From: a virus
Taxonomy: Duplodnaviria > Caudoviricetes
Strand: one strand, 5' to 3'
Length of the DNA: 39,268 nucleotides
IMG/VR virus record: IMGVR_UViG_3300037791_000039
Location: 1 to 39,268 of that record
Shown: in pieces, positions 224 to 36,761 of the stretch
Position numbering within the stretch: position 1 is the first letter of the stretch
How the letters are laid out: every line of letters begins with the position of its first letter
Program-made: the position numbers and the translations under genes
Notes under the pieces: generated by a model
Told to the model about the DNA's origin: nothing
Seen by the model: the letters and a program-made list of their open reading frames with translations, nothing else
The model's database searches: none

Positions 224-700
224 CTAAGCTGGCCACCAGCCGAACGGGCAGTCCTCGGCGAGGTCACGTGCCTTTTTGCTGAGGACGCAGCCACAGGTTC
301 CCTCACCAGCTTCGCGCATTGAGGCAAGCATGGGGCCGCAGGTGTGGAGATCGCCGTTTCGGTAGACAGCATGGTTGCCGGGGCATTGCCGGCAGACGGC
401 GAGCCGTGCTTCGATCTGTTCATTGCTGGCCATGTCGATACCGAGTGTGGTCTTGGCCACGCTCTTGGCTGCGTGCGAGACTGCAGTGATGACATTTAGC
501 GCTTGCTGCTTGGGGCTTGGCCTCGGAGCAGGCGTTGGGTCACCGCCACGCAGTACCTGCTTCCAGGTCTCATGCGCAAAGTACCAGGCCGTCCCTTCTT
601 CCTTAACTCGGGCTCGCTTAGCGCGATCCATCAGCGTGGGGTCGCGCCGGCGCGTGACCTGCTCGATGTATGCGATTGGGATTTTGATTTCGTCTGCCAT
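224..700 (-). CDS. Cys-rich phage protein with DUF6171-like C-terminus
   Basis: 158 aa; motif RLAVCRQCP...CGCVLSKKAR...CPFGWW; last gene of the late operon. Confidence 0.7.
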   Translation of the reverse strand: MADEIKIPIAYIEQVTRRRDPTLMDRAKRARVKEEGTAWYFAHETWKQVLRGGDPTPAPRPSPKQQALNVITAVSHAAKSVAKTTLGIDMASNEQIEARLAVCRQCPGNHAVYRNGDLHTCGPMLASMREAGEGTCGCVLSKKARDLAEDCPFGWWPA

Positions 701-720
701 TTAGCCAAGGCAGGACCCTT

Positions 721-977
721 CACGGTTGTTATCCCGCTGGCTCTTTATCCAGCGGCTCTACGGCTCTCACCGCAGGTCGGACTATCTCTTCCCTCGGTTG
801 AGGGTCGGGCGCTCGTGGAGGCGATTACTGTCCGGTCTGGACTCGGCCTCTAGTCTCTGCACCTTCCGAAGCGTTCCCGCCTCGGCTTGGCTCAGGATTG
901 CCCTCGTCTTCACGTTAGGGGTTTCCCTGAATTCACCCGATATGGCCAATGTTTGTCTAGGGCTCCTTTCTATTCAC
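721..977 (-). ncRNA. Group I intron ribozyme core, no internal ORF; 5' boundary uncertain
   Basis: Minus strand: P3 UCGGGUG(940-934)/CGCCCGA(811-805); P AAUUCAGGGAAA(933-922); Q AAUCCUGAGC(899-890); P6a CCGAGGCG-GGAA-CGCUUCGG(885-866); R GCAGAGACUA(860-851); P7.1 GAGGC/GCCUC; P8 CCCUC-AACC-GAGGG; S AAGAGAUAGUCC(790-779); P9 CUGCGGU-GAGA-GCCGUAG; P9.1 CCGCUGG/CCAGCGG; P9.0 AC(777-776)/GU(723-722) just before terminal G721. Confidence 0.92.
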
Positions 978-3357
978 AACAGTTCACGTGGACGCCGAGC
1001 ACATCTGCCCAGCCGTCAGATTCGGGGTAGGGGCTGCCGTCAGCGTACTTGTCATACGAAGACAGCCGGACATGGACGATCAGCGTGAACGATGAGCCCG
1101 GTGCGGGCAGCCCGCTTTGAACACACCCGTACAACGTGGCGAGGTCTGGGGTAAACCATGTTGAGCCGGTTTCCCATCCGCCGATTCCACAGGCGTCGTA
1201 CCAGAAGGGCTCATCATCGAGTAGCGCCCCCTGGGGTCGATCACATGCGGCGTATTGGTTCGCGTCGTATCCCGATCGAAACGGTCCGTTCGTACATGGG
1301 TTGTTGCCGAAGCTGTTAGTCACGACAACGACTTTGCCGCCGACCTCAGTGAAGCCAGTGCCATTGTGAGAGATACATGGCCAAACAAGTAAACGATGGC
1401 ACACACGGTGATCGGGTTTGCGAGCCTTGTAGTCTTCGTAGGATTCACCGGGCTGGATCGGGATATGCCCGGCCTGATTGCCTGATACGTTGACCGCTGC
1501 ACATGGCGCTGAAGTGTGGCAGTCGATACAAGGCTCGTCGGGCGGACAGTCATCCATAACCTCGGTCACGTTGACGGGGTTGATCGGCCCGCCCGGATCG
1601 CCTTCGAAGACCTTCCACCAGACACCGCTGTGCTTGACGGCTTTGCCAACGAGCGCGGCCAAGTCGGTGCGCGTCGCACCCCAGATCAATCCGGGGTCAT
1701 CGCATTGGGCCAGGAAGTAGATCGGTCCGCATTCGTCGCGCCTAAACAAGCTGCAGGCGGCGGTTGAGTTGGGTGCCCGCTTTTCTCTGGCATCAACGAT
1801 CACAACAGCAACCCCACCCACAGGCAGCGACAGCCTACCGGGGTGACGCACGCGGTAGCACTTGCCGTCGTGTTTACCCGCGATGATCTTGGTGTGTCTT
1901 GGCAGCTGCACCCACTTGTTGGTTGTGCCTTGGCCGCACTCCCAGATCCGGAACCAACGCTTTGATGGCGGCGGCGGGTTTTCGCCACCACCGGGTCCAC
2001 CACCACCGCCTCCTCCACCGGGCGGATCGGGCGGGTTCCAGCCGAAGCACTCGGCACAGGAAACAAACGCGGGACCAATGCGGTGAAGGATCTCTGCGTC
2101 GGCCGGGATGAGCGTGCTTGCTTCAAACGGATCGACCCAGACACAGAATCCCCGGTGCTCAAAGCGTGTCAGCTTGTCGGGGAGCCTGGAGTTGGGCACC
2201 CAGGTGTCGCGCCAGTTGCGAGCATTCTGTCCCGGGCACAATCGGACTGGTACACCCGAGAGTCCCGGGCAAACGGGGTTGAGTTGTCCGCCGCAAGTGC
2301 AAGCGAGGCAGGACTCGAATTGGCATCGTAGCGCGATCGATATGGCTTCGGTGGGGATGCGCGAGGCCACCGCGTTGAGATCGAGGCTGTGGCACACGCC
2401 GTCGATGCGCTGAACGATCGTGGTCAGGCCGGGGTAATCCAGCAGCAGCGCATCAATCGCTTCTTTAGTTGCCCAGTACGCAACGCCGGGGTCTTTCGCG
2501 TCTGGGCACAGAGCGAACGGAACACCGAGGTTGCAGGTGCTGCAGGGCTGGTCGTTCGACGGTCGAAGTAGTCGGGCGTCGTCGGGGATGAGAGCAGAAG
2601 GAGCGGTTTGCTTTTCGTAGCACCAGCCGCTGTATTCAAATCCATCGGGTGTGTCTGGGAGGTCTGCATCTCTGATCCACACCTCGGGCGCATCGGCCGC
2701 ATTGGGCAGTGCTTGGTCTGCCGGGCAGAGCGATTGCTTCACACCGTGGGTACAGGTGGTGCAATCGTCCTGGGGATTGCCCAGCCCGATCCAGAACGCG
2801 GGGTCCGGATTATTGACTACCGGCCCGGCGGGCACGTTGATGCAGATGCCGCCGTTATCAAAGACACCTTGCTGACCGCGCTCTGTGTCGCTGGGGACGT
2901 AGAGGTTGTTGACATCCCAGCCGCGGGCAATGGCCCTTGGTGCGTGATCGGCGCAGACGGTCGCCTTGATCCCTTTGGGCGGATCGTTGGGCCAAGGCCA
3001 CGCGCCTCCGCCGTCCCCACCACCGATTCCACCACCTGCCCCGGCCCCCGCGCCACCGCCGCCGGGGAATCCTTCACCCGCTTCTTCGCTTGCACTCTCA
3101 CAGCTGGTGCAGTCGTCCCATGGGAACGGGCCACGGTATGCATAGATGCCATCGCCTTGCGGCATGCAGATGCGGCCACCAGCCGGATCGATGGTCCAGC
3201 AGTTACGACTCGCATCGTCTTGTGTATCGAGCTCGAAGCGCTTGGCGGTAGCGGGCAGATCATCCTCATGCACGAAGACACGCAGGTCCGAGGTGTTGTT
3301 TGAACACTTGGTCGCCTCGACCCAGGTATCACAGTTTTGGCAGCGCGGCCAACTCAT
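970..3357 (-). CDS. Cys-rich repeat virion protein, putative tail fibre/receptor-binding protein (795 aa)
   Basis: Start moved to ATG 3357, which overlaps the upstream TGA (ATGA). About 7 repeats with C...C...CxxC and two Gly/Pro linkers; distal position in the tail module. Confidence 0.7.
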   Translation of the reverse strand: MSWPRCQNCDTWVEATKCSNNTSDLRVFVHEDDLPATAKRFELDTQDDASRNCWTIDPAGGRICMPQGDGIYAYRGPFPWDDCTSCESASEEAGEGFPGGGGAGAGAGGGIGGGDGGGAWPWPNDPPKGIKATVCADHAPRAIARGWDVNNLYVPSDTERGQQGVFDNGGICINVPAGPVVNNPDPAFWIGLGNPQDDCTTCTHGVKQSLCPADQALPNAADAPEVWIRDADLPDTPDGFEYSGWCYEKQTAPSALIPDDARLLRPSNDQPCSTCNLGVPFALCPDAKDPGVAYWATKEAIDALLLDYPGLTTIVQRIDGVCHSLDLNAVASRIPTEAISIALRCQFESCLACTCGGQLNPVCPGLSGVPVRLCPGQNARNWRDTWVPNSRLPDKLTRFEHRGFCVWVDPFEASTLIPADAEILHRIGPAFVSCAECFGWNPPDPPGGGGGGGGPGGGENPPPPSKRWFRIWECGQGTTNKWVQLPRHTKIIAGKHDGKCYRVRHPGRLSLPVGGVAVVIVDAREKRAPNSTAACSLFRRDECGPIYFLAQCDDPGLIWGATRTDLAALVGKAVKHSGVWWKVFEGDPGGPINPVNVTEVMDDCPPDEPCIDCHTSAPCAAVNVSGNQAGHIPIQPGESYEDYKARKPDHRVCHRLLVWPCISHNGTGFTEVGGKVVVVTNSFGNNPCTNGPFRSGYDANQYAACDRPQGALLDDEPFWYDACGIGGWETGSTWFTPDLATLYGCVQSGLPAPGSSFTLIVHVRLSSYDKYADGSPYPESDGWADVLGVHVNCCE

Positions 3358-4277
3358 GCGCCGCCTCCTTCGCAAGGACCGTCTGCGTTGTTGATGGCTT
3401 GAAAGACGTGCTCGATCGCTTGGGTCTCGCAGTTGATCTCGGGTGTGATCTGGACGACCGCCCCTGCGCCGATGGGCTGGATCGAAACCCCCGCGGGCAG
3501 GAGATCGACATTGATGCCGCAACCCTGCACGCCCGTCGCGCTGTTGTTCGCTTCGACCGTGTTGTAGGCCGTGCCAGTCAACCCGTCGGGCACGGCCGCC
3601 CAGGTGCCGGCCTGCTGATACTTCATCTGCGTAAAGGGATACGACCAACGGTTATCACCGATCGAGGTTGCCCCACCCAGTTTGCCCCAGACCCAATCAG
3701 CCCCGGGAGTTGTGCCGAGGTTCACCAGCGCCCAAACAACGGTCGATGCAGAACCGCTTCCGGGGGCACTTCCGGGGGCGTGCCAGATGATTTGGGTGCC
3801 GGGCTTGCCGGATTCGAGTTTGGTGGTGTCGCCGTCGATCACACCGGCGGTGGTGTGTTGTTCATCGAGCAGGTCGATCTGTACCGGGCAGATGCCGTTG
3901 ACGTAGGCCCGGCCGATTCCCCCTGCGGGCAAGGGGTCGAGCAGGACCGCGAAATGCCCCGCCGCTGCATGCTCGTCCTCGGTCGGCGTGACGACGGTCA
4001 GCGCGACCTGGCGCAGGAATTCGTCGAGGTGATCGCCGGGCAGGATGATCGGGGCGTTGATCCCGACGACCGCGTTGCGCGAGAGATCAGCCCCGGAGTC
4101 GTTGCGGACCAGGACGATGCCGGTCTGTTTCGTGCCGGCGGTTGCGGGCATGGGACCACGGCCACCGGCCTGCTGCTCGTAGTAAGCGCGCGTGGCATCG
4201 ACGATCTTGTTCCAGTCGTTCGCTGGGATTCGCAGCGGGCTTCCGCTTTGGACATGACGCAAGTGTGCCATCGTCAC
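3354..4277 (-). CDS. Putative tail tip/baseplate-region protein
   Basis: 307 aa; GTGA overlap with the upstream gene; second gene after the tape measure. Function from position only. Confidence 0.6.
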   Translation of the reverse strand: MTMAHLRHVQSGSPLRIPANDWNKIVDATRAYYEQQAGGRGPMPATAGTKQTGIVLVRNDSGADLSRNAVVGINAPIILPGDHLDEFLRQVALTVVTPTEDEHAAAGHFAVLLDPLPAGGIGRAYVNGICPVQIDLLDEQHTTAGVIDGDTTKLESGKPGTQIIWHAPGSAPGSGSASTVVWALVNLGTTPGADWVWGKLGGATSIGDNRWSYPFTQMKYQQAGTWAAVPDGLTGTAYNTVEANNSATGVQGCGINVDLLPAGVSIQPIGAGAVVQITPEINCETQAIEHVFQAINNADGPCEGGGA

Positions 4278-28634: not shown

Positions 28635-28681
28635 GAGCCTGCGCATGAGTGGTCCATTCGATCCTATCGAAGAGAATGCAT

Positions 28682-29737
28682 ATGGCACTTTGGCTCAACA
28701 GATCGGGAAGGCACTGCGAGCACGAAACCAAGTTCCTCGATGAGGGCCGTATTTACCTCACTTGGGGCGGGCTCCATCACAATCTTGGTCAGATCGACGC
28801 CCGTGACGGTCTGATGGCCATTCTCGAAGAGGTCTACCCCAAAGCAGGTCCGAACAAACGCAAGCAAAACTCAAATCAAATCTGGGCCTTCGCCAAACGC
28901 ATGTCCAAAGGCGACTGGGTCTGCATGCCCAGTAAACGCAAGACCATCCACATCGGCGAGATCACCAGCGACTACACGCACGATCCCAAAGCCGAGGATC
29001 CGTACCATCACTTCCGCAAGGTCAACTGGCTCGAAACCGACATCCCCCGCACCAACTTCGATCAAGACCTGCTGCATTCGCTCGGGGCCTTCTCAACCAT
29101 CTGCCAGATCAAGCGAAACGACGCCGAGGAACGCATCAGAGGCATGAAGGCCAACGGCTGGAAATCCATCGGCGTGAAAGCCAAGCCCTCGATTGATGCC
29201 GCCGACGATGAGATTGCCACCGACGAAGAAACAACCGCTCAGTTCGACCTTGAGCAGATCGCCCGCGACCAAATCGCCCGGACAATCTATGCCCAGTACA
29301 AGGGCCACGGCCTTGAGTCCCTTGTTCAAGCCATCCTACAAGCCCAAGGTTTCACCACTCACCACAGTGACAAAGGTGCAGACGGCGGCATCGACATCCT
29401 CGCCGCGCCAGGCACCCTCGGCTTCGGCACGCCACGCATCTGCGTACAGGTCAAAAGCCAAGACTCCGCCCTCGAACGCCCCGTCCTCGATCAACTCGTC
29501 GGAACCATGCAGCACGTTGGTGCTGACCATGGCCTGCTGGTCTGCTGGGGCGGCTTCAAGAAAACCGTCATCGCCGAACTCCCACGCCTCTTCTTCAAGG
29601 TTCGACTGTGGGATCAAAACGACCTGATCGATCAGTTCCTTGCCGTATACGACAAGCTCGACGAAGACCTCCAGGCCGAAATCCCACTCAAACGCGTGTG
29701 GGCCGTAGCGTCTAGCGATACTGATCAAGAAGACTAA
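28682..29737 (+). CDS. mrr: Mrr-family restriction endonuclease
   Basis: C-terminal DGGIDI...VQVK catalytic motif with GLLVCWGGF; start placed at ATG 28682. Confidence 0.85.
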   Translation: MALWLNRSGRHCEHETKFLDEGRIYLTWGGLHHNLGQIDARDGLMAILEEVYPKAGPNKRKQNSNQIWAFAKRMSKGDWVCMPSKRKTIHIGEITSDYTHDPKAEDPYHHFRKVNWLETDIPRTNFDQDLLHSLGAFSTICQIKRNDAEERIRGMKANGWKSIGVKAKPSIDAADDEIATDEETTAQFDLEQIARDQIARTIYAQYKGHGLESLVQAILQAQGFTTHHSDKGADGGIDILAAPGTLGFGTPRICVQVKSQDSALERPVLDQLVGTMQHVGADHGLLVCWGGFKKTVIAELPRLFFKVRLWDQNDLIDQFLAVYDKLDEDLQAEIPLKRVWAVASSDTDQED

Positions 29738-29782
29738 TGCACCGCCCCCAAAGACCACGCAGAAAAAAGAAAACCAACACGC

Positions 29783-31360
29783 ATGACCAGTCAAGCACAA
29801 CGAGACGCCCTACACAAAGCCATCTGGGCCATCGCCAACGATGTCCGTGGTGCTGTCGATGGATGGGACTTCAAGCAGTACGTCCTCGGCGCACTGTTCT
29901 ACCGCTTCATCAGCGAGAATTTCGCCGCCTATATCGAAGCCGATGACGAGAGCATCAACTACGCCGAACTCAACGACGACATCATCACGCCCGAGATCAA
30001 AGAGGATGCGGTCAAGACCAAGGGCTACTTCATCTACCCCAGCCAGCTCTTTGCCAACGTCACCAAGCACGCTAGCGACAACGAGAGTCTCAATACCGAC
30101 CTCGCCGCCATCTTCTCCGCCATCGAAAGCTCCGCCAACGGCTACGCTTCCGAACAGGACATCAAAGGCCTCTTCGCCGACTTCGATACCACCAGCAACC
30201 GCCTGGGTAACACCGTCGCCGACAAGAATAAACGCCTCGCCGACGTCCTCAAAGGCGTCGCCAAACTCGACTTTGGTGACTTCCACGACAACCAGATCGA
30301 TCTCTTCGGCGACGCCTACGAGTTCCTCATCGGCAAATACGCCGCCAACGCCGGCAAGTCCGGCGGCGAGTTCTTCACCCCGACTCACGTCTCCAAGCTC
30401 ATCGCACAACTCGCGATGCACAAGCAGACTAGCGTCAATAAAATCTATGACCCCGCCGCAGGCTCAGGCTCACTGCTCCTCCAAGCCAGAAAGCACTTCA
30501 AAGAGCACATCATCGAAGAAGGCTTCTTCGGCCAGGAAATCAATCATACGACCTACAACCTCGCTCGTATGAACATGTTCCTACACAACATCAATTACGA
30601 CAAGTTCAACCTTAAGCTCGGCAACACGCTCCTCGAACCCCACTTCGATAGCGATAAGCCCTTCGACGCCATCGTCTCCAATCCCCCTTACTCCGTGAAG
30701 TGGATCGGCTCGGACGACCCCACCCTGATCAACGACGACCGCTTCGCCCCCGCCGGCGTCCTCGCGCCCAAGTCCAAAGCCGACTTCGCCTTCGTCATGC
30801 ACGCCCTCAGCTACCTCTCCAGCAAGGGCCGCGCCGCCATCGTCTGCTTCCCCGGCATCTTCTACCGGGGCGGTGCCGAGCAGAAAATCCGCAAGTACCT
30901 CGTCGACAACAACTACGTCGAGACCGTCATCTCCCTCGCCCCCAACCTGTTCTACGGCACCACCATCGCCGTCAACATCCTCGTCCTCTCCAAGCACAAA
31001 ACCGAAACGACGACGCAATTCATCGACGCAAGCGGATTATTTAAAAAAGAAACCAATAACAACGCCCTCATCGACGACGACGATCCAAACAATCCCGGAC
31101 ATATCCAGCAGATCATGCAGGCCTTCGACGCCAAGGACAACGTCGACCACTTCGCCCAATCGATTAGCTTGGAGACCGTTGCCGCCAACGACTACAACCT
31201 CTCGGTGAGCAGCTATGTCGAGCCAAAAGATATGCGAGAGGCCATCGACATCACCAATCTCAACACAGAGATCAAAGGCATCGTCAAGCGGCAAGCGGAA
31301 TTGAGAACAGAGATCGACTTGATAATTGCGAAGATCGAAGAAGCAGAGGTGGAGGCATGA
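29783..31360 (+). CDS. hsdM: Type I RM methyltransferase subunit
   Basis: [21 protein letters not shown]. Confidence 0.96.
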
Positions 31361-32535
31361 GAAAAACTATGTTCTTAGACAAGATGCTTGATGGCTCTGA
31401 GGTGGGCTGGTTACCACTCGGCAAAGTGTCGGCATACGAACAACCAACCAAGTACCTCGTTAAAACGAAAAACTACGACGATGATTGGGATACTCCGGTT
31501 TTAACGGCAGGCAAGACTTTCATACTTGGATACACAAACGAGACACATGGCATTTACAAGGCTTCACAAAACCCAGTCATCATATTTGACGATTTTACGA
31601 CTGCTAATAAATGGGTTGATTTCGATTTCAAGGCGAAGTCGTCTGCAATGAAGATGATCACATCCGCAGACGAATCCAAGATCCTCATTAAATACATTTA
31701 CTACTGGCTAAACACACTGCCTAGCGAATTAATTGAAGGTGATCACAAACGCCAATGGATCAGCAATTATTCCCATAAGAAAATCCCCGTACCCTGCCCC
31801 GATGACCAAGAGAAATCACTGGCCATTCAAGCAGAGATTGTTCGGATTCTGGATACATTTACAACGCTGGAAGCGGAGCTGGAAGCGGAGCTGGAAGCGC
31901 GTCGCAAGCAGTACCAGTACTACCGCGACGCGCTGCTGACATTCGATAACGCGAGCGAAGCAAGCAAGCAAGCAACAATAGGATGGAAGACGTTGAATGA
32001 AATTTCAAATAATTTAGATTCACAACGCCGACCCATCACGAAGTCGGCACGCAAGGCCGGCAACGTTCCCTACTACGGCGCGTCGGGGATTGTCGATTAT
32101 GTAGAAGGTCATATCTTCGACGGCGACTACCTTCTGGTTTCTGAAGACGGCGCGAATCTACTCGCGCGTGTAACACCGATTGCCTTCTCAATTAGTGGAA
32201 AGAACTGGGTTAATAACCACGCCCATGTTTTGCAGTTTGGCTCTTACGCTGAGCGCAGGTTTGTTGAGTACTACCTGAACATGATTGATCTAACTCAGTT
32301 CATCAGCGGAGCAGCACAACCCAAGCTCAACAAGAAGAATCTGAATAGCATCCAAATACCCGCACCACCGCTTGAAGAACAAGCCCGCATCGTCGCCATC
32401 CTCGACAAGTTCGACGCCTTGGTGAACGACCTGACCGACGGCCTGCCCGCCGAGATCGCCGCACGGCGAAAACAGTACGAGTACTACCGCGACCAATTGC
32501 TGACCTTCCCACAAGCCGAGGAGGCGGCGGCCTAA
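31357..32535 (+). CDS. hsdS: Type I RM specificity subunit
   Basis: Two AT-richer TRDs, each followed by a conserved Q..IV.ILD.F...RRKQY.YYRD.LLTF helix. Confidence 0.95.
31867..31899 (+). repeat. 12-bp tandem repeat (CTGGAAGCGGAG) x2.75 encoding LEAE in the hsdS spacer
   Basis: Read directly from the sequence. Confidence 0.9.
31960..31975 (+). repeat. (GCAA)4 simple sequence repeat inside hsdS, just before TRD2
   Basis: Read directly from the sequence. Confidence 0.9.
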
Positions 32536-32536
32536 G

Positions 32537-33667
32537 ATGAGCCAGGCTCTTACCGACATCGCGCAACAGCTCAAGGACAGCGACAAGAAGGTCCAGTTGA
32601 TCTACGCCTTTAACGGCTCGGGCAAGACCCGGCTGTCGCGCGCGTTTAAGGAGTTGGTCGCGCCGAAGCAGACCGATGTGGATGAGCTAGAAGAGGATCA
32701 ATCCACCCGCATTAAAATTCTTTATTACAACGCCTTCACCGAAGACCTGTTCTATTGGGATAACGACCTAGAGGCGGATGTTGCGAGAAAACTGCGCATC
32801 CAGCCGAACGCGTACACCCAGTGGGCACTCGTCGAGCAGGGCCAAGACCTCAACGCGATCGGGCATTTCCAACGCTACACCGACGACAAGCTGACCCCGC
32901 GATTCAATCCCGCGTTCTCCGAAGTCACCTTCTCCTTCGAGCGAGGGGATAATCAACAGACCGACAATGTCAAAATCTCAAAGGGCGAAGAGAGCAATTT
33001 CATCTGGAGCATCTTCCACGCGGTGCTTGAGCAGGTGATAGATGTGCTCAACGTCGCCGAGCCGGGCGAACGGGAGACCGATCAGTTCGATGAGCTCGAA
33101 TACATGTTCATCGATGATCCGGTCAGCTCGCTGGACGACAACCACCTGATTCAATTGGCCGTTGACCTGGCGGCATTGATCAAGTCCAGCGATTCCAGCC
33201 TGAAGTTCATCGTGACCACACACAATCCGCTGTTTTACAACGTCCTGTTCAACGAATTGAGTAAGGCCAAGAAGTACATGCTGACCAGGGATGCTAACGG
33301 CAGCTACGAGCTAGCAGAACAGGCCACCGACTCGCCGTTCTCATACCACTTATTCTTGATGAATGAACTGGACCAAGCCATCGCCACGGGGCAGATTCAC
33401 AAATACCACTTCAACTTTCTTCGGAATATATTTGAGAAGACCTCGACGTTTCTCGGGCATAAGAAGTGGGCCGACTTACTGCCACAGGTGGAGGGGGGAG
33501 GATCGAATCCCTACGCCAATCGCATTGTCAATATCTCGAGCCACTCCAAACACGCGGGCGATGAAGTGCGCAACCTCACCGATCCGGAGAAGCAGATGGT
33601 AAAACTCCTTGTGGATCACCTCAGAAGCACCTATCGCTTCTGGCAGCCGGAGGTTGAAAATGCCTGA
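32537..33667 (+). CDS. prrC: PrrC-family anticodon nuclease (ABC ATPase plus HEPN)
   Basis: [52 protein letters not shown] and RIVNISSH; located between hsdS and hsdR as in the E. coli prr locus. Confidence 0.9.
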
Positions 33668-36600
33668 CTACACCAAGCCCATCGCGGAATCCAACAGCTT
33701 CATCGTCCTCGACAAGTACACGCGCGCGGCGGATGCGGCGGACTCCTACCAGAGCGAGCAGGATTTAGAACAGGAACTCTTACAAGATCTGCAGAGCCAG
33801 GGCTACGAGTTTGCCGCGGACATCAGAACGCCCGAAGCGATGCTGGCCAACGTTCGGATTCAGCTACAAGAACTCAACGGCATGGCGTTTAGTAATGGCG
33901 AATGGCTGCGCTTCGTTGAAACCTATCTGGACAAGCCCAGCGACACGATCGTCGACAAGACCCGCAAGATTCACGATGACTACATCAACGACTTTGTCTT
34001 TGATGATGGGCACATCCAGAACATCTACCTGGTGGACAAAAAGAACACAGCACGCAACAAGGTGCAGGTGATCTCCCAATTCGAACAGACGGGCACGCAT
34101 GCGAACCGGTACGACGTGACGATCCTGGTCAACGGGCTGCCGCTGGTGCAGGTGGAACTCAAGAAGCGTGGCGTCGCGATCCGTGAGGCCTTCAATCAGG
34201 TCCACCGCTATAGCAAAGAGAGTTTCAACAGTGACAATTCGCTATTCAAGTACCTCCAGCTCTTTGTCATCTCGAACGGGACGGATACCCGGTACTTCGC
34301 CAACACGACCCAGCGGGATAAGAACAGCTTTGACTTTACGATGCACTGGGCGAAGGCCGACAACGGACTGATCAAAGATCTCAAGGATTTCACGGCGACG
34401 TTCTTCCAGAAGAAGACGCTACTAGAGGTGCTGCTGAAGTACTCGGTCTTTGATGTCAGCGATACCCTGCTCGTCATGCGGCCCTATCAGATCGCAGCGA
34501 CCGAGCGGATCATCTGGAAGATCGCCAGCTCGTATGAAGCGAAGACCTGGAGCAAGCCCGAGGGCGGCGGCTACATCTGGCATACAACCGGGTCGGGCAA
34601 GACGCTGACCAGCTTCAAGGCGGCGCGTCTGGCGACAGAGCTTGAATTCGTTGACAAAGTCTTCTTCGTGGTGGACCGCAAGGACCTCGACTACCAGACG
34701 ATGAAGGAGTACCAGCGGTTCTCACCGGACAGCGTCAATGGCTCCGATAGCACAGCAGGACTCCGGCGAAACCTAGATAAAGAAGACAACAAGATCATCG
34801 TCACGACGATCCAGAAGCTCAACAACCTGATGAAGGGCGAGGCGGATCTCCCGGTCTATCAGAAGCAAGTCGTATTTATCTTTGACGAGTGCCACCGCAG
34901 CCAGTTCGGCGAGGCGCAGAAGAACCTTAAGAAGAAGTTCAAGCGGTATTACCAGTTTGGCTTTACGGGTACGCCGATCTTCCCCGACAACGCACTCGGT
35001 GCGGACACCACGTCGGGAGTCTTTGGTCGCGAGCTACACTCATACGTCATCACCGATGCCATCCGTGACGAGAAGGTGCTGAAGTTCAAGGTGGACTACA
35101 ACGATGTGCGTCCCCAGTTCAAGGCGATCGAGACCGAGCAGGACGAGAAGAAGCTGAGCGCAGCCGAGAACAAGAAGGCCCTGCTGCACCCTGATCGCAT
35201 CAATGAAGTCACTCAGTACATACTGAAAAACTACCGGCAGAAGACGCATCGCAATCAAGGGGGCAACACGGGCTTTAACGCCATGTTTGCCGTGAGCAGT
35301 GTCGATGCGGCCAAGTGCTACTACGAGGCGTTCAAGCAACTTCAGTCAGATACTGCCAAGCCTCTGAAGACCGCGACGATCTTTTCTTTTGCAGCAAATG
35401 AAGAGCAGAATGCGGTCGGTGAGATTGTTGATGAGAGCTTTGAAGTGTCGGCTATGGATAGTACGGCTAAGGAGTTTTTGGACGCAGCGATTGCCGATTA
35501 CAACGCCATGTTCAAGACAAACTTTGGCGTCGACAGCAATGGATTTCAGAACTACTACCGAGACCTTGCAAAGCGAGTGAAGAATCAAGACATCGACCTG
35601 CTCATCGTGGTCGGGATGTTCTTGACAGGATTTGATGCACCAACGCTCAACACGCTGTTTGTCGATAAGAACCTGCGCTATCACGGCCTGATGCAGGCCT
35701 ATTCTCGCACGAACCGTATTTACGATGCCACGAAGACTTTCGGCAATATTGTCACATTCCGTGACCTTGAGCAGGCAACGATCGACGCTATCACTCTCTT
35801 CGGCGACGCGAATACCAGAAACGTCGTCCTAGAGAAGAGCTACAAAGAGTATATGGAGGGCTTCACCGATATCGCTACGGGTGAAGCGAGACGTGGTTAT
35901 ATCGACGTAGTTGCAGAGCTTGAGCAGCGTTTCCCCGAGCCCTCTGAAATTGAGACAGAAGCCGACAAAAAGCAGTTCGTCAAGTTGTTTGGGGAGTACT
36001 TGAAGGTCGAAAACGTGCTTCAGAACTACGACGAATTCACCTCACTCAAATCGCTGCAAAGCATCGACCTTGACGATCCCGATGCTATCGAGGATTTCAA
36101 ATCTACGCACTATCTCGATGACGAGGACCTAGCAAAGCTGAAGGAAATCGATGTGCCTTCTGAGCGTGCGATCCAGGACTACCGGTCAACCTACAACGAT
36201 ATACGCGATTGGCTGAGGCGGGAGAAGGCAGCAAAGGAAAAGGAACAGTCGACAATCGATTGGGATGATGTTGTATTTGAAGTCGACTTGTTGAAATCAC
36301 AGGAGATCAATCTCGACTACATCCTTGAGTTGATCTTCGAAAACAATAAGAAGGTTAAAGACAAGTCTGAACTGGTCGATGATGTACGTCGAGTCATCCG
36401 GGCAAGTATCGGCAATCGTGCCAAGGAAAGCCTACTTGTGGATTTCATCAATCAGACCGATCTCGATCAAATTGGCGATAAAGCCAGCGTAATTGATGCG
36501 TTCTTCACCTTCGCCCAAGCCGAACAGCAGCGCGAAGCAGAAGAACTCATACAAAGCGAGGATTTGAACACCGAAGCTGCAAAGCGTTACATCGTCACCT

Positions 36601-36761
36601 CACTGAGACGGGAATTCGCCAGCGAGAATGGCACCGAGCTCAATGCGCTCCTGCCGAAGATGAGTCCGTTGAATCCGCAATATCTGAGCAAGAAGCAAAG
36701 CGTATTCCAGAAGATTGCTGCGTTTGTAGAGAAGTTCAAGGGGGTAGGTGGGAAAGTGTGA
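33660..36761 (+). CDS. hsdR: Type I RM restriction subunit (EcoR124I-like)
   Basis: [39 protein letters not shown]; ATG 33660 with GGAGG RBS. Confidence 0.96.

What the first reader, a model, noticed from the sequence alone, without database searches (positions are those of the whole stretch)
721..977. Intact ORF-less group I ribozyme at the junction of the last two tail-module genes
Seen: the roughly 270-nt gap between the Cys-repeat gene (stop 970) and the DUF6171-like gene (start 700) folds into a full group I core. All P3-P9 stems pair, the P/Q/R/S elements and the P7 G-binding site are present, P6a and P9 have GNRA loops, and P5 carries a CCCUAAC/GAGGG motif. Established: GGGCAATCCTGAGCCAA (903-887) and GGTGCAGAGACT are the conserved blocks of tRNA-Leu group I introns, and CCCUAAC/GAGGG is the IC3-type GNRA receptor. 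Phage group I introns usually interrupt a conserved coding region and often carry a homing endonuclease. Here the upstream gene already has its own stop, and I see no endonuclease in the window. Inference: a preserved core with no need to repair an ORF suggests an RNA-processing or regulatory role in late expression.
Basis: partly seen in the sequence, partly recalled or inferred. Interest (0 to 1): 0.9.

Follow-up and report, generated by a model that had tools for sequence, protein, structure and literature searches.

The report
Back-to-front self-splicing RNA in a prophage
Between two late genes of this prophage sits an intact group I ribozyme that interrupts no gene and has its matching cut site behind the catalytic core instead of in front of it, so it is predicted to cut its own message two bases before the next start codon and would close the 18 bases in between into a tiny RNA circle.

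Summary
The ribozyme is real: RF00028, 758-1007(-), 72.5 bits, with core helices covarying across 21 relatives. No P1 or P2 lies upstream. A guide at 947-944 sits three bases before P3 and pairs, with a U.G wobble, with 706-703, downstream of the terminal G721. The splice sites are therefore reversed: a natural group I intron opened in loop L1, enclosing an 18-nt exon. I assigned 23 of 27 complete short-linker cores to this layout; guide and target change together in seven pair types. Phage tmRNA introns use the same geometry with the site upstream. Predicted products: a downstream mRNA starting G-A-A-AUG, an 18-nt circle, and an upstream RNA ending in the ribozyme. None is shown; RNA runs were uninformative. 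In this lineage a 13-bp exon-P6a pairing outcompetes P1 in folding predictions: an off-switch or a defect. It is not a tRNA-Leu/IC3 intron. My searches found no paper on this natural class, but the scan reported it before on other DNA (e1-8689258, e1-9799634, e1-10473439, e1-8689259, e1-10042646).

The parts
970..3648 (-). Upstream gene, 892 aa, Cys-rich, own stop at 972-970; lies downstream of the tape-measure gene. Its last ~140 aa (973-1389) form a domain of an unnamed family
   Evidence: no family hit; 24 clusters; model pLDDT 77, no fold match
963..969 (-). Shine-Dalgarno-like stretch directly after the upstream stop; no start codon at normal spacing; possibly the downstream gene's old ribosome-binding site (inferred)
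   Evidence: kept in L002 and L130 with a variable 11-13-nt spacer
944..951 (-). Internal guide: wobble G947, P1 guide 947-944, P1-extension/P10 guide 949-948 (951-950 can also pair with the AUG)
941..943 (-). 3-nt linker from P1 to P3; no P2
   Evidence: same geometry in conventional tmRNA introns
779..940 (-). Catalytic core P3-P4-P5-P6-P6a-P7-P7.1-P8 with G-binding pair G855-C780
722..778 (-). P9.0 (777-776/723-722), P9 with GAGA loop, P9.1 hairpin and A/C-rich tail
721..721 (-). Omega-G; 3' splice site between 721 and 720
   Evidence: P9.0 pairing and analogy to the ends of conventional relatives; assigned by hand
703..720 (-). 18-nt exon between the reversed splice sites: 4-bp hairpin (720-717/710-707) followed by the P1 target 706-703; predicted circle
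   Evidence: identical in L002
701..703 (-). 5' splice site U703|A702 (U703.G947), two bases before the AUG
875..887 (-). P6a 5' strand, complementary over 13 bp to 715-703: alternative fold, likely inactive, specific to this lineage
224..700 (-). Downstream gene, 158 aa, small Cys-rich phage protein with no Shine-Dalgarno of its own
   Evidence: (phrog_13558)

Best explanation
[quoted passage not shown] Shown by sequence and comparison: intact covarying core; reversed splice-site order; guide and target changing together across phages; no gene repaired. Inferred from group I chemistry: step 1 adds G to A702 and frees a G-A-A-AUG mRNA whose start codon was buried in P1 and had no ribosome-binding site; step 2 joins U703 to A720 and leaves the upstream mRNA ending in a folded ribozyme with omega-G 3'-OH. 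Inferred, weakest: the purpose is to control the level or timing of the small Cys-rich protein. The 13-bp exon-P6a helix would act as an off-state or as a lock after step 1, because the core folds before the exon is transcribed.
For: RF00028 72.5 bits. Core covariation. Of 27 complete cores with a short linker (26 after dropping truncated L130, plus L307 added by hand), 23 were assigned to the permuted layout, 3 have a normal P1+P2 and 1 is a conventional P2-less intron. In the 23: U.G at -1 in 22 (one C-G); -2 is G-C 13, C-G 7, U-A 2, A-U 1; -4 is G-C 18, U-A 4, A-U 1; the +1 base pairs with the next guide base in 20. In a fixed 30-nt window behind the core a lineage's own guide finds a perfect site in 11 of 16 lineages, other guides in 4 of 96 trials, and the own guide in the 30 nt upstream in 0 of 16; conventional cores give 4 of 76. 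Close pair L255/L283 swaps A-U for C-G at -2, and the tandem copies in L256 each match their own downstream site at +1. Positive control: in L353 the same 4-bp + 3-nt geometry with an upstream site gives a tmRNA for 1 of 36 tested joins. The same order (guide, ribozyme, omega-G, cargo, NNNNNU) circularises RNA in engineered constructs (PMC10457212, passages). Window against L002: 11 differences in 255 nt, all in loops or pair-preserving, against 89% and 85% identity in the flanking genes.
Against: No activity data and no junction, circle or processed end seen. In 2D folding of the window P1 has probability about 0 and the exon-P6a helix about 1; the modelled active fold is -88.2 kcal/mol without P3 against an MFE of -109.0. 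This pairing beats 1000 of 1000 shuffles and occurs in 1 of 14 short-exon members tested. The AUG is at +3 in only 8 of 23 records (3 lineages), and 4 of 23 have no ORF start within 60 nt, so start-codon control is not the family's universal role. Short leaders lower leaderless initiation about twofold per base in Caulobacter (PMC8459731, passages). Splice sites and omega-G were picked by hand where several fitted, so the P10 count (20 of 22) and the permutation test (15 against 3.6) are partly circular. The fixed window was chosen after seeing the data. The guide also has four perfect sites within 200 nt upstream.
Confidence: 0.6

Rival explanations
1. Same permuted chemistry, different purpose: the useful product is the small circle or the freed guide-core-omega-G RNA. 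That RNA has the form of a trans-acting ribozyme and could cut or trans-splice other RNAs; the effect on the downstream gene would be incidental.
For: Exon length runs from 15 to 140 nt, and the 80- and 140-nt exons are highly structured. The distance to the next AUG varies and is absent in 4 of 23. L256 has two copies in tandem with no long ORF between them. P10 can form in 20 of 22 (hand-assigned), so step 2 looks maintained.
Against: A 4-5-bp guide gives little target specificity (inference). Exon sequences are not conserved between lineages. In the window the site sits two bases from an AUG that lacks a ribosome-binding site.
Confidence: 0.2
2. The family is active but this lineage's copy is trapped or decaying: the exon has become complementary to P6a, so the RNA misfolds and the downstream gene is translated by another route.
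For: The 13-bp exon-P6a duplex (-24.4 kcal/mol) outweighs the P6a hairpin (-13.5) plus the P1 duplex (-9.3). The four RNA contigs over the element are unspliced.
Against: All 11 differences from L002 are structure-compatible, including a two-sided change in P8, while the flanking genes diverge more. 2D models ignore P3 and tertiary contacts, and give low P1 probability for 5 of 13 other members as well. The RNA runs carry phage DNA.
Confidence: 0.13
3. A conventional intron with a long L1 loop, whose 5' splice site lies inside the upstream gene (nearest candidate U1011|G1010).
For: The guide has perfect sites 62, 115, 146 and 160 nt upstream. The 1011 site is also present in L002.
Against: 0 of 21 upstream sites fuse the two ORFs. 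The 1011 join creates an immediate stop and removes 13 residues that overlap the last predicted beta-strand of a conserved domain. The downstream duplex is stronger (-9.3 against -6.1 to -7.3). Upstream sites in relatives are scattered or absent.
Confidence: 0.04

Closest known systems
[quoted passage not shown]
   Same: Order guide - intact ribozyme - omega-G - cargo - target U; P1 with a G.U wobble; cargo circularised.
   Different: Laboratory designs with kilobase cargo; this one is natural, in a provirus, with a 4-bp P1, no P2, a P7.1 hairpin, an 18-nt cargo and a gene starting two bases after the site.
Circularly permuted (CP) group II ribozymes (PMC8637638, passages and first part of Discussion)
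   Same: Stand-alone, ORF-less, splice sites reversed, predicted circles of 15-86 nt, function unknown.
   Different: Group II fold and branch chemistry; the product stays joined as a branched RNA. The group I version would sever the transcript and give a new G-started 5' end. The paper says CP group II RNAs never precisely abut an ORF.
Mushroom-coral mitochondrial intron ND5-717 (PMC6545197, abstract and Discussion)
   Same: [quoted passage not shown]
   Different: Opened in P8, joins real coding exons of an essential gene, eukaryotic organelle; here opened in L1, with a non-coding 18-nt exon and no gene repaired.
Conventional phage group I introns with P7.1 and no P2 (tested here: L353 in a two-piece tmRNA; also L307, L345, L347, L354, L356)
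   Same: Same core family, same 4-bp P1 and 3-nt linker to P3.
   Different: Their U.G site is upstream and splicing restores a gene; several carry long inserts.
Lariat-capping ribozymes (GIR1) and the Clostridioides difficile c-di-GMP-controlled group I ribozyme (PMC4167309 and PMC3984707, passages)
   Same: Group I-derived RNAs domesticated to shape the 5' region of a downstream mRNA, with conformational control.
   Different: GIR1 has a P3/P15 pseudoknot and makes a 2',5' lariat cap. The C. difficile RNA has normal splice-site order and an upstream aptamer. Neither feature is present here.

Membership tests
Group I intron (RF00028) | Covariance-model match above the gathering score | tested here: met
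   72.5 bits against 50
Group I intron (RF00028) | P3-P9 core with G-binding pair in P7 and terminal omega-G | tested here: met
   omega-G assigned by P9.0 and analogy
Group I intron (RF00028) | 5' splice site in a P1 upstream of the core | tested here: not met
   The covarying U.G site is downstream of omega-G
Group I intron (RF00028) | Excision restores an interrupted gene | tested here: not met
   0 of 21 upstream joins fuse ORFs; no tRNA or tmRNA
Group I intron (RF00028) | GTP- and Mg2+-dependent self-splicing | not testable with these tools
   Needs an in vitro assay; RNA contigs uninformative
Subgroup IC3 / tRNA-Leu introns | Inserted in a tRNA anticodon loop | tested here: not met
   ARAGORN finds 0 genes
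Subgroup IC3 / tRNA-Leu introns | P2 present and no P7.1 (definition recalled, from no call) | tested here: not met
   P7.1 at 850-818 covaries (helix 7); only 3 nt lie between guide and P3
Subgroup IC3 / tRNA-Leu introns | IC3-type GNRA receptor (CCC...GGG plus asymmetric loop; PMC2275092, passages) | tested here: met
   In P5, 920-914/905-901, but in only 2 of 21 family members and common in capsid-gene introns
Subgroups IA1-IA3 | Best score with subgroup covariance models | not testable with these tools
   Only RF00028 matched; P7.1 is IA-like (recalled); PMC11878797 (passages) says phage introns fit the scheme poorly
CP group II ribozymes | Group II domains D5-D6-D1-D4 | tested here: not met
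   The only Rfam hit in the window is group I
CP group II ribozymes | Reversed splice sites around a short linker | tested here: met
   18-nt exon; 15-140 nt in 22 assigned members
Lariat-capping ribozyme (GIR1) | P3/P15 pseudoknot | tested here: not met
   P8 runs straight into a standard J8/7, and the strand before P3 pairs behind omega-G
Lariat-capping ribozyme (GIR1) | Homing-endonuclease gene downstream | tested here: not met
   The downstream protein matches only phrog_13558
Riboswitch-controlled group I ribozyme (C. difficile type) | Aptamer upstream of the intron | tested here: not met
   No riboswitch family above threshold in the window
STS-type permuted group I layout | Guide at 5' end, target U downstream of omega-G, G.U wobble | tested here: met
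   design in PMC10457212
STS-type permuted group I layout | Circular product formed | tested here: inconclusive
   No joint in 4 contig runs; an 18-nt circle is below what contigs can show

The most novel reading that the evidence does not exclude
Phages have domesticated a natural class of back-to-front group I ribozymes as GTP-driven mRNA processors. This copy is a conformational switch: exon-P6a pairing holds it off, and the active fold cuts the late transcript, hands the downstream gene a new G-started leader, releases an 18-nt circle and leaves a ribozyme able to act on other RNAs in trans.
Probability: 0.2. Interest if true: 0.92.

Novelty: new variant of a known kind. Interest (0 to 1): 0.76.

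Why it matters
A natural, stand-alone, circularly permuted group I class would be the group I counterpart of CP group II ribozymes. It would show that a layout thought to be a laboratory invention for making circular RNA evolved in phages. It offers compact (about 250 nt) natural scaffolds for RNA circularisation. It gives a directly testable case of a self-splicing RNA used for message processing instead of gene repair. One transcription reaction with labelled GTP decides the chemistry.

Tried and rejected
RNA evidence: four metatranscriptome runs hold only contigs. Pieces at 621-905, 716-905, 621-898 and 620-782 are unspliced and show no joint. Three runs have depth in all 30 bins of the first 20 kb, so DNA carry-over is likely and nothing follows about transcription. 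An RBS-joining model (963-969 brought to the AUG by normal splicing) was rejected, because a splice site three bases before P3 leaves no P1 and has no U.G. Treating the 949-944/706-701 helix as P2 with the exon hairpin as P1 was rejected, because that hairpin has no U.G and its sequence is not conserved. Origin: a tree of 103 cores (22 of the 23 permuted records after removing a near-duplicate, 81 others) is unresolved at the base. One origin is neither shown nor rejected (p-AU 0.16), and L276 groups with conventional introns; its omega-G could not be assigned. Upstream domain as a partner: homologous in the window, L002, L129 and L007, and the 4 viral loci found with that profile are the contigs already known to carry the ribozyme (circular). 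It is not clearly homologous to the L128-group domain (probability 3.6%), and other members follow unrelated genes, so it is not a universal partner. Its model had no fold match (best Z 3.6) and no useful atlas hit. L126 as a second control was dropped, because its upstream reading frame is unclear. Cultured phages give only partial matches to conventional introns (114 records, none covering 80%), and plasmids none. The genome scan gave 17 hits; by my motif filters only L333 and L336 repeated cores already seen. No sigma-70 promoter was found in 1-1600. No family covariance model was built. The host was not determined.

Full report
Setting. The window is an IMG/VR provirus record with terminase, portal, capsid, tail tube and tape-measure genes on the minus strand. 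The finding lies between an 892-aa Cys-rich gene (stop 972-970) and a 158-aa Cys-rich gene (start 700) at the end of that late run. That they are tail genes is a positional inference; neither has a named family. The host was not determined.

A close relative, L002, scores 77 bits at the same junction. It differs at 11 of 255 positions, all in loops or pair-preserving, while the flanking genes are 89% and 85% identical. Two other relatives of the downstream gene, L003 and L004, have no ribozyme; in L004 the gene is coupled to its neighbour by an overlapping stop-start with a ribosome-binding site. Over 21 aligned family members, 50 named pairs are 93.3% paired and 31 show two-sided changes; slid structures give 30-47%.

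The core carries a P7.1 hairpin and has no P1 or P2 in front of it. The 3' end is conventional and stops at G721, by P9.0 pairing and by comparison with the ends of conventional phage introns. Three bases upstream of P3 lies a strand (949-944) that pairs with 706-701, behind G721. Read as P1, it has U703.G947 at the top, three Watson-Crick pairs below, and a two-pair extension. The same two guide bases can pair with A720-A719 as P10. The splice sites are thus in reverse order around an 18-nt exon, and the AUG begins two bases after the 5' site. I reached this reading from the window and L007, before looking up earlier findings.

Family test. A pattern that fixes only the linker, one G/C position and P3-P4 was run on viral, metagenome and genome contigs (24, 46 and 17 stretches, many without a core). 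With earlier loci this gave 27 distinct cores. I dropped L130 (cut off), left out L273 (cut off, failed the filter) and added L307 by hand. Of the 27 complete cores, 23 have the permuted layout, 3 have ordinary P1+P2, and L307 is conventional without P2. Among the 23, position -1 is U.G in 22 and C-G in one, -2 takes four pair types, -4 takes three, and +1 pairs in 20; -3 was constrained by the pattern. Sixteen lineage representatives show seven guide/target types. Where several sites fitted I chose by eye, so the permutation result (15 observed, 3.6 expected) is partly circular. The fairer test is a fixed window 55-85 nt after P7: own guide 11 of 16, foreign guides 4 of 96, own guide in the 30 nt upstream 0 of 16, conventional cores 4 of 76. 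The window bounds were set after seeing the data. Two internal controls help: L255 and L283 differ by an A-U to C-G swap at -2, and the two tandem ribozymes of L256 each match their own site at +1. As a positive control for the geometry, L353 has the same 4-bp guide and 3-nt linker with the site upstream, and 1 of 36 tested joins yields a two-piece tmRNA in ARAGORN. Exons are 15-140 nt in the 22 members with a hand-assigned omega-G, and P10 can form in 20.

Context. The window, L002, L007 and L129 follow homologous C-terminal domains and precede small Cys-rich ORFs. The L128 group and L285 have a similar arrangement with at most weakly related proteins, and other members sit between unrelated genes. 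The upstream domain has 24 clusters at 50% identity and no fold match.

How it would work. By standard group I chemistry (PMC3984707, section on core features), GTP bound in P7 attacks U703|A702. This severs the transcript and gives the downstream gene a 5' end of G-A-A-AUG. In the precursor that AUG is at the end of P1 and has no Shine-Dalgarno; the only strong one nearby lies at 969-963, upstream of the ribozyme. U703-OH then attacks G721|A720, closing an 18-nt circle and leaving the upstream mRNA ending in a folded ribozyme. Engineered constructs with this order circularise RNA (PMC10457212, passages). I commit to message processing as the role, at 0.6 for the whole chain. The architecture alone I put near 0.9; chemistry and purpose are inferred.

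Results against. Nothing catalytic is shown. Four RNA runs gave only unspliced contigs, and three look DNA-contaminated. In the window the exon pairs over 13 bp with the 5' strand of P6a; this fold dominates the 2D ensemble and abolishes P1. It beats all 1000 shuffles and is seen in 1 of 14 short-exon members tested (L002 shares the sequence). It may be a switch or a defect. The AUG is at +3 in only 8 of 23 records, and 4 have no nearby start. Short leaders weaken leaderless initiation (PMC8459731, passages). The guide has four perfect upstream sites, but none of 21 upstream joins fuses the ORFs, and the nearest truncates a conserved domain. The tree neither shows nor rejects a single origin.

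Comparison with what is known. It works like the engineered STS constructs and parallels CP group II ribozymes (PMC8637638, passages and first part of Discussion). Natural group I back-splicing is known from coral mitochondria, but opened in P8 and joining coding exons (PMC6545197, abstract and Discussion). It fails the tests for a conventional intron, for tRNA/IC3 introns, for lariat-capping ribozymes (PMC4167309, passages) and for the riboswitch-controlled type (PMC3984707, passages). A 2023 list of natural circular permutations names no group I case (PMC10085705, passages), and the word 'permut' does not occur in the main text of a group I database paper or a phage intron survey (PMC11835236; PMC11878797). 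Searches listed no paper on natural L1-permuted phage group I ribozymes; the library lacks most subscription journals, and I read no supplements. The scan has reported this class on other genomes, two notes with claimed RNA junctions. I did not verify those junctions and do not count them as evidence.

Verdict. A real, conserved, back-to-front group I ribozyme: a new variant of a known kind, surprising and cheaply testable. Interest 0.76.

Noticed in passing
window 28649-36761 (+): The provirus carries an Mrr-type nuclease and a full type I restriction-modification cluster (M, S, an AAA protein, R) opposite to its late genes.
   Followed up: no
window 973-1389 (-): C-terminal domain of an unnamed family with a conserved proline-aromatic-Cys-Gly-Gly-Trp motif; 24 clusters, no Pfam or fold match.
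   Followed up: partly
L256 1001-1533 (-): Two permuted ribozymes in tandem, 278 nt apart, each with its own downstream site; the first site could also serve the second guide. Possibly an intermediate in how the layout arises.
   Followed up: partly
L353 about 1421-2060 (+); also L307, L345, L347, L354, L356: P2-less group I intron in the T-loop of a two-piece phage tmRNA; the tmRNA appears only after the in silico join.
   Followed up: partly
L285 about 1737 (+): The downstream ORF's only nearby start is a UUG that spans the predicted cut; adding G there would create a 5'-terminal GUG, a true leaderless start.
   Followed up: no
L255 1157-1534 (-), L283 624-1004 (-), L271 and L274 1491-1800 (+): Members with long structured exons (140 and 80 nt), the best targets for finding circles in RNA data.
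   Followed up: no
L286 1491-1741 (+): The only member with C-G instead of U.G at the predicted site, followed by repeats and no nearby ORF; may be weakened.
   Followed up: no
L035, L054, L179: Phage loci with three group I cores each within 3 kb.
   Followed up: no
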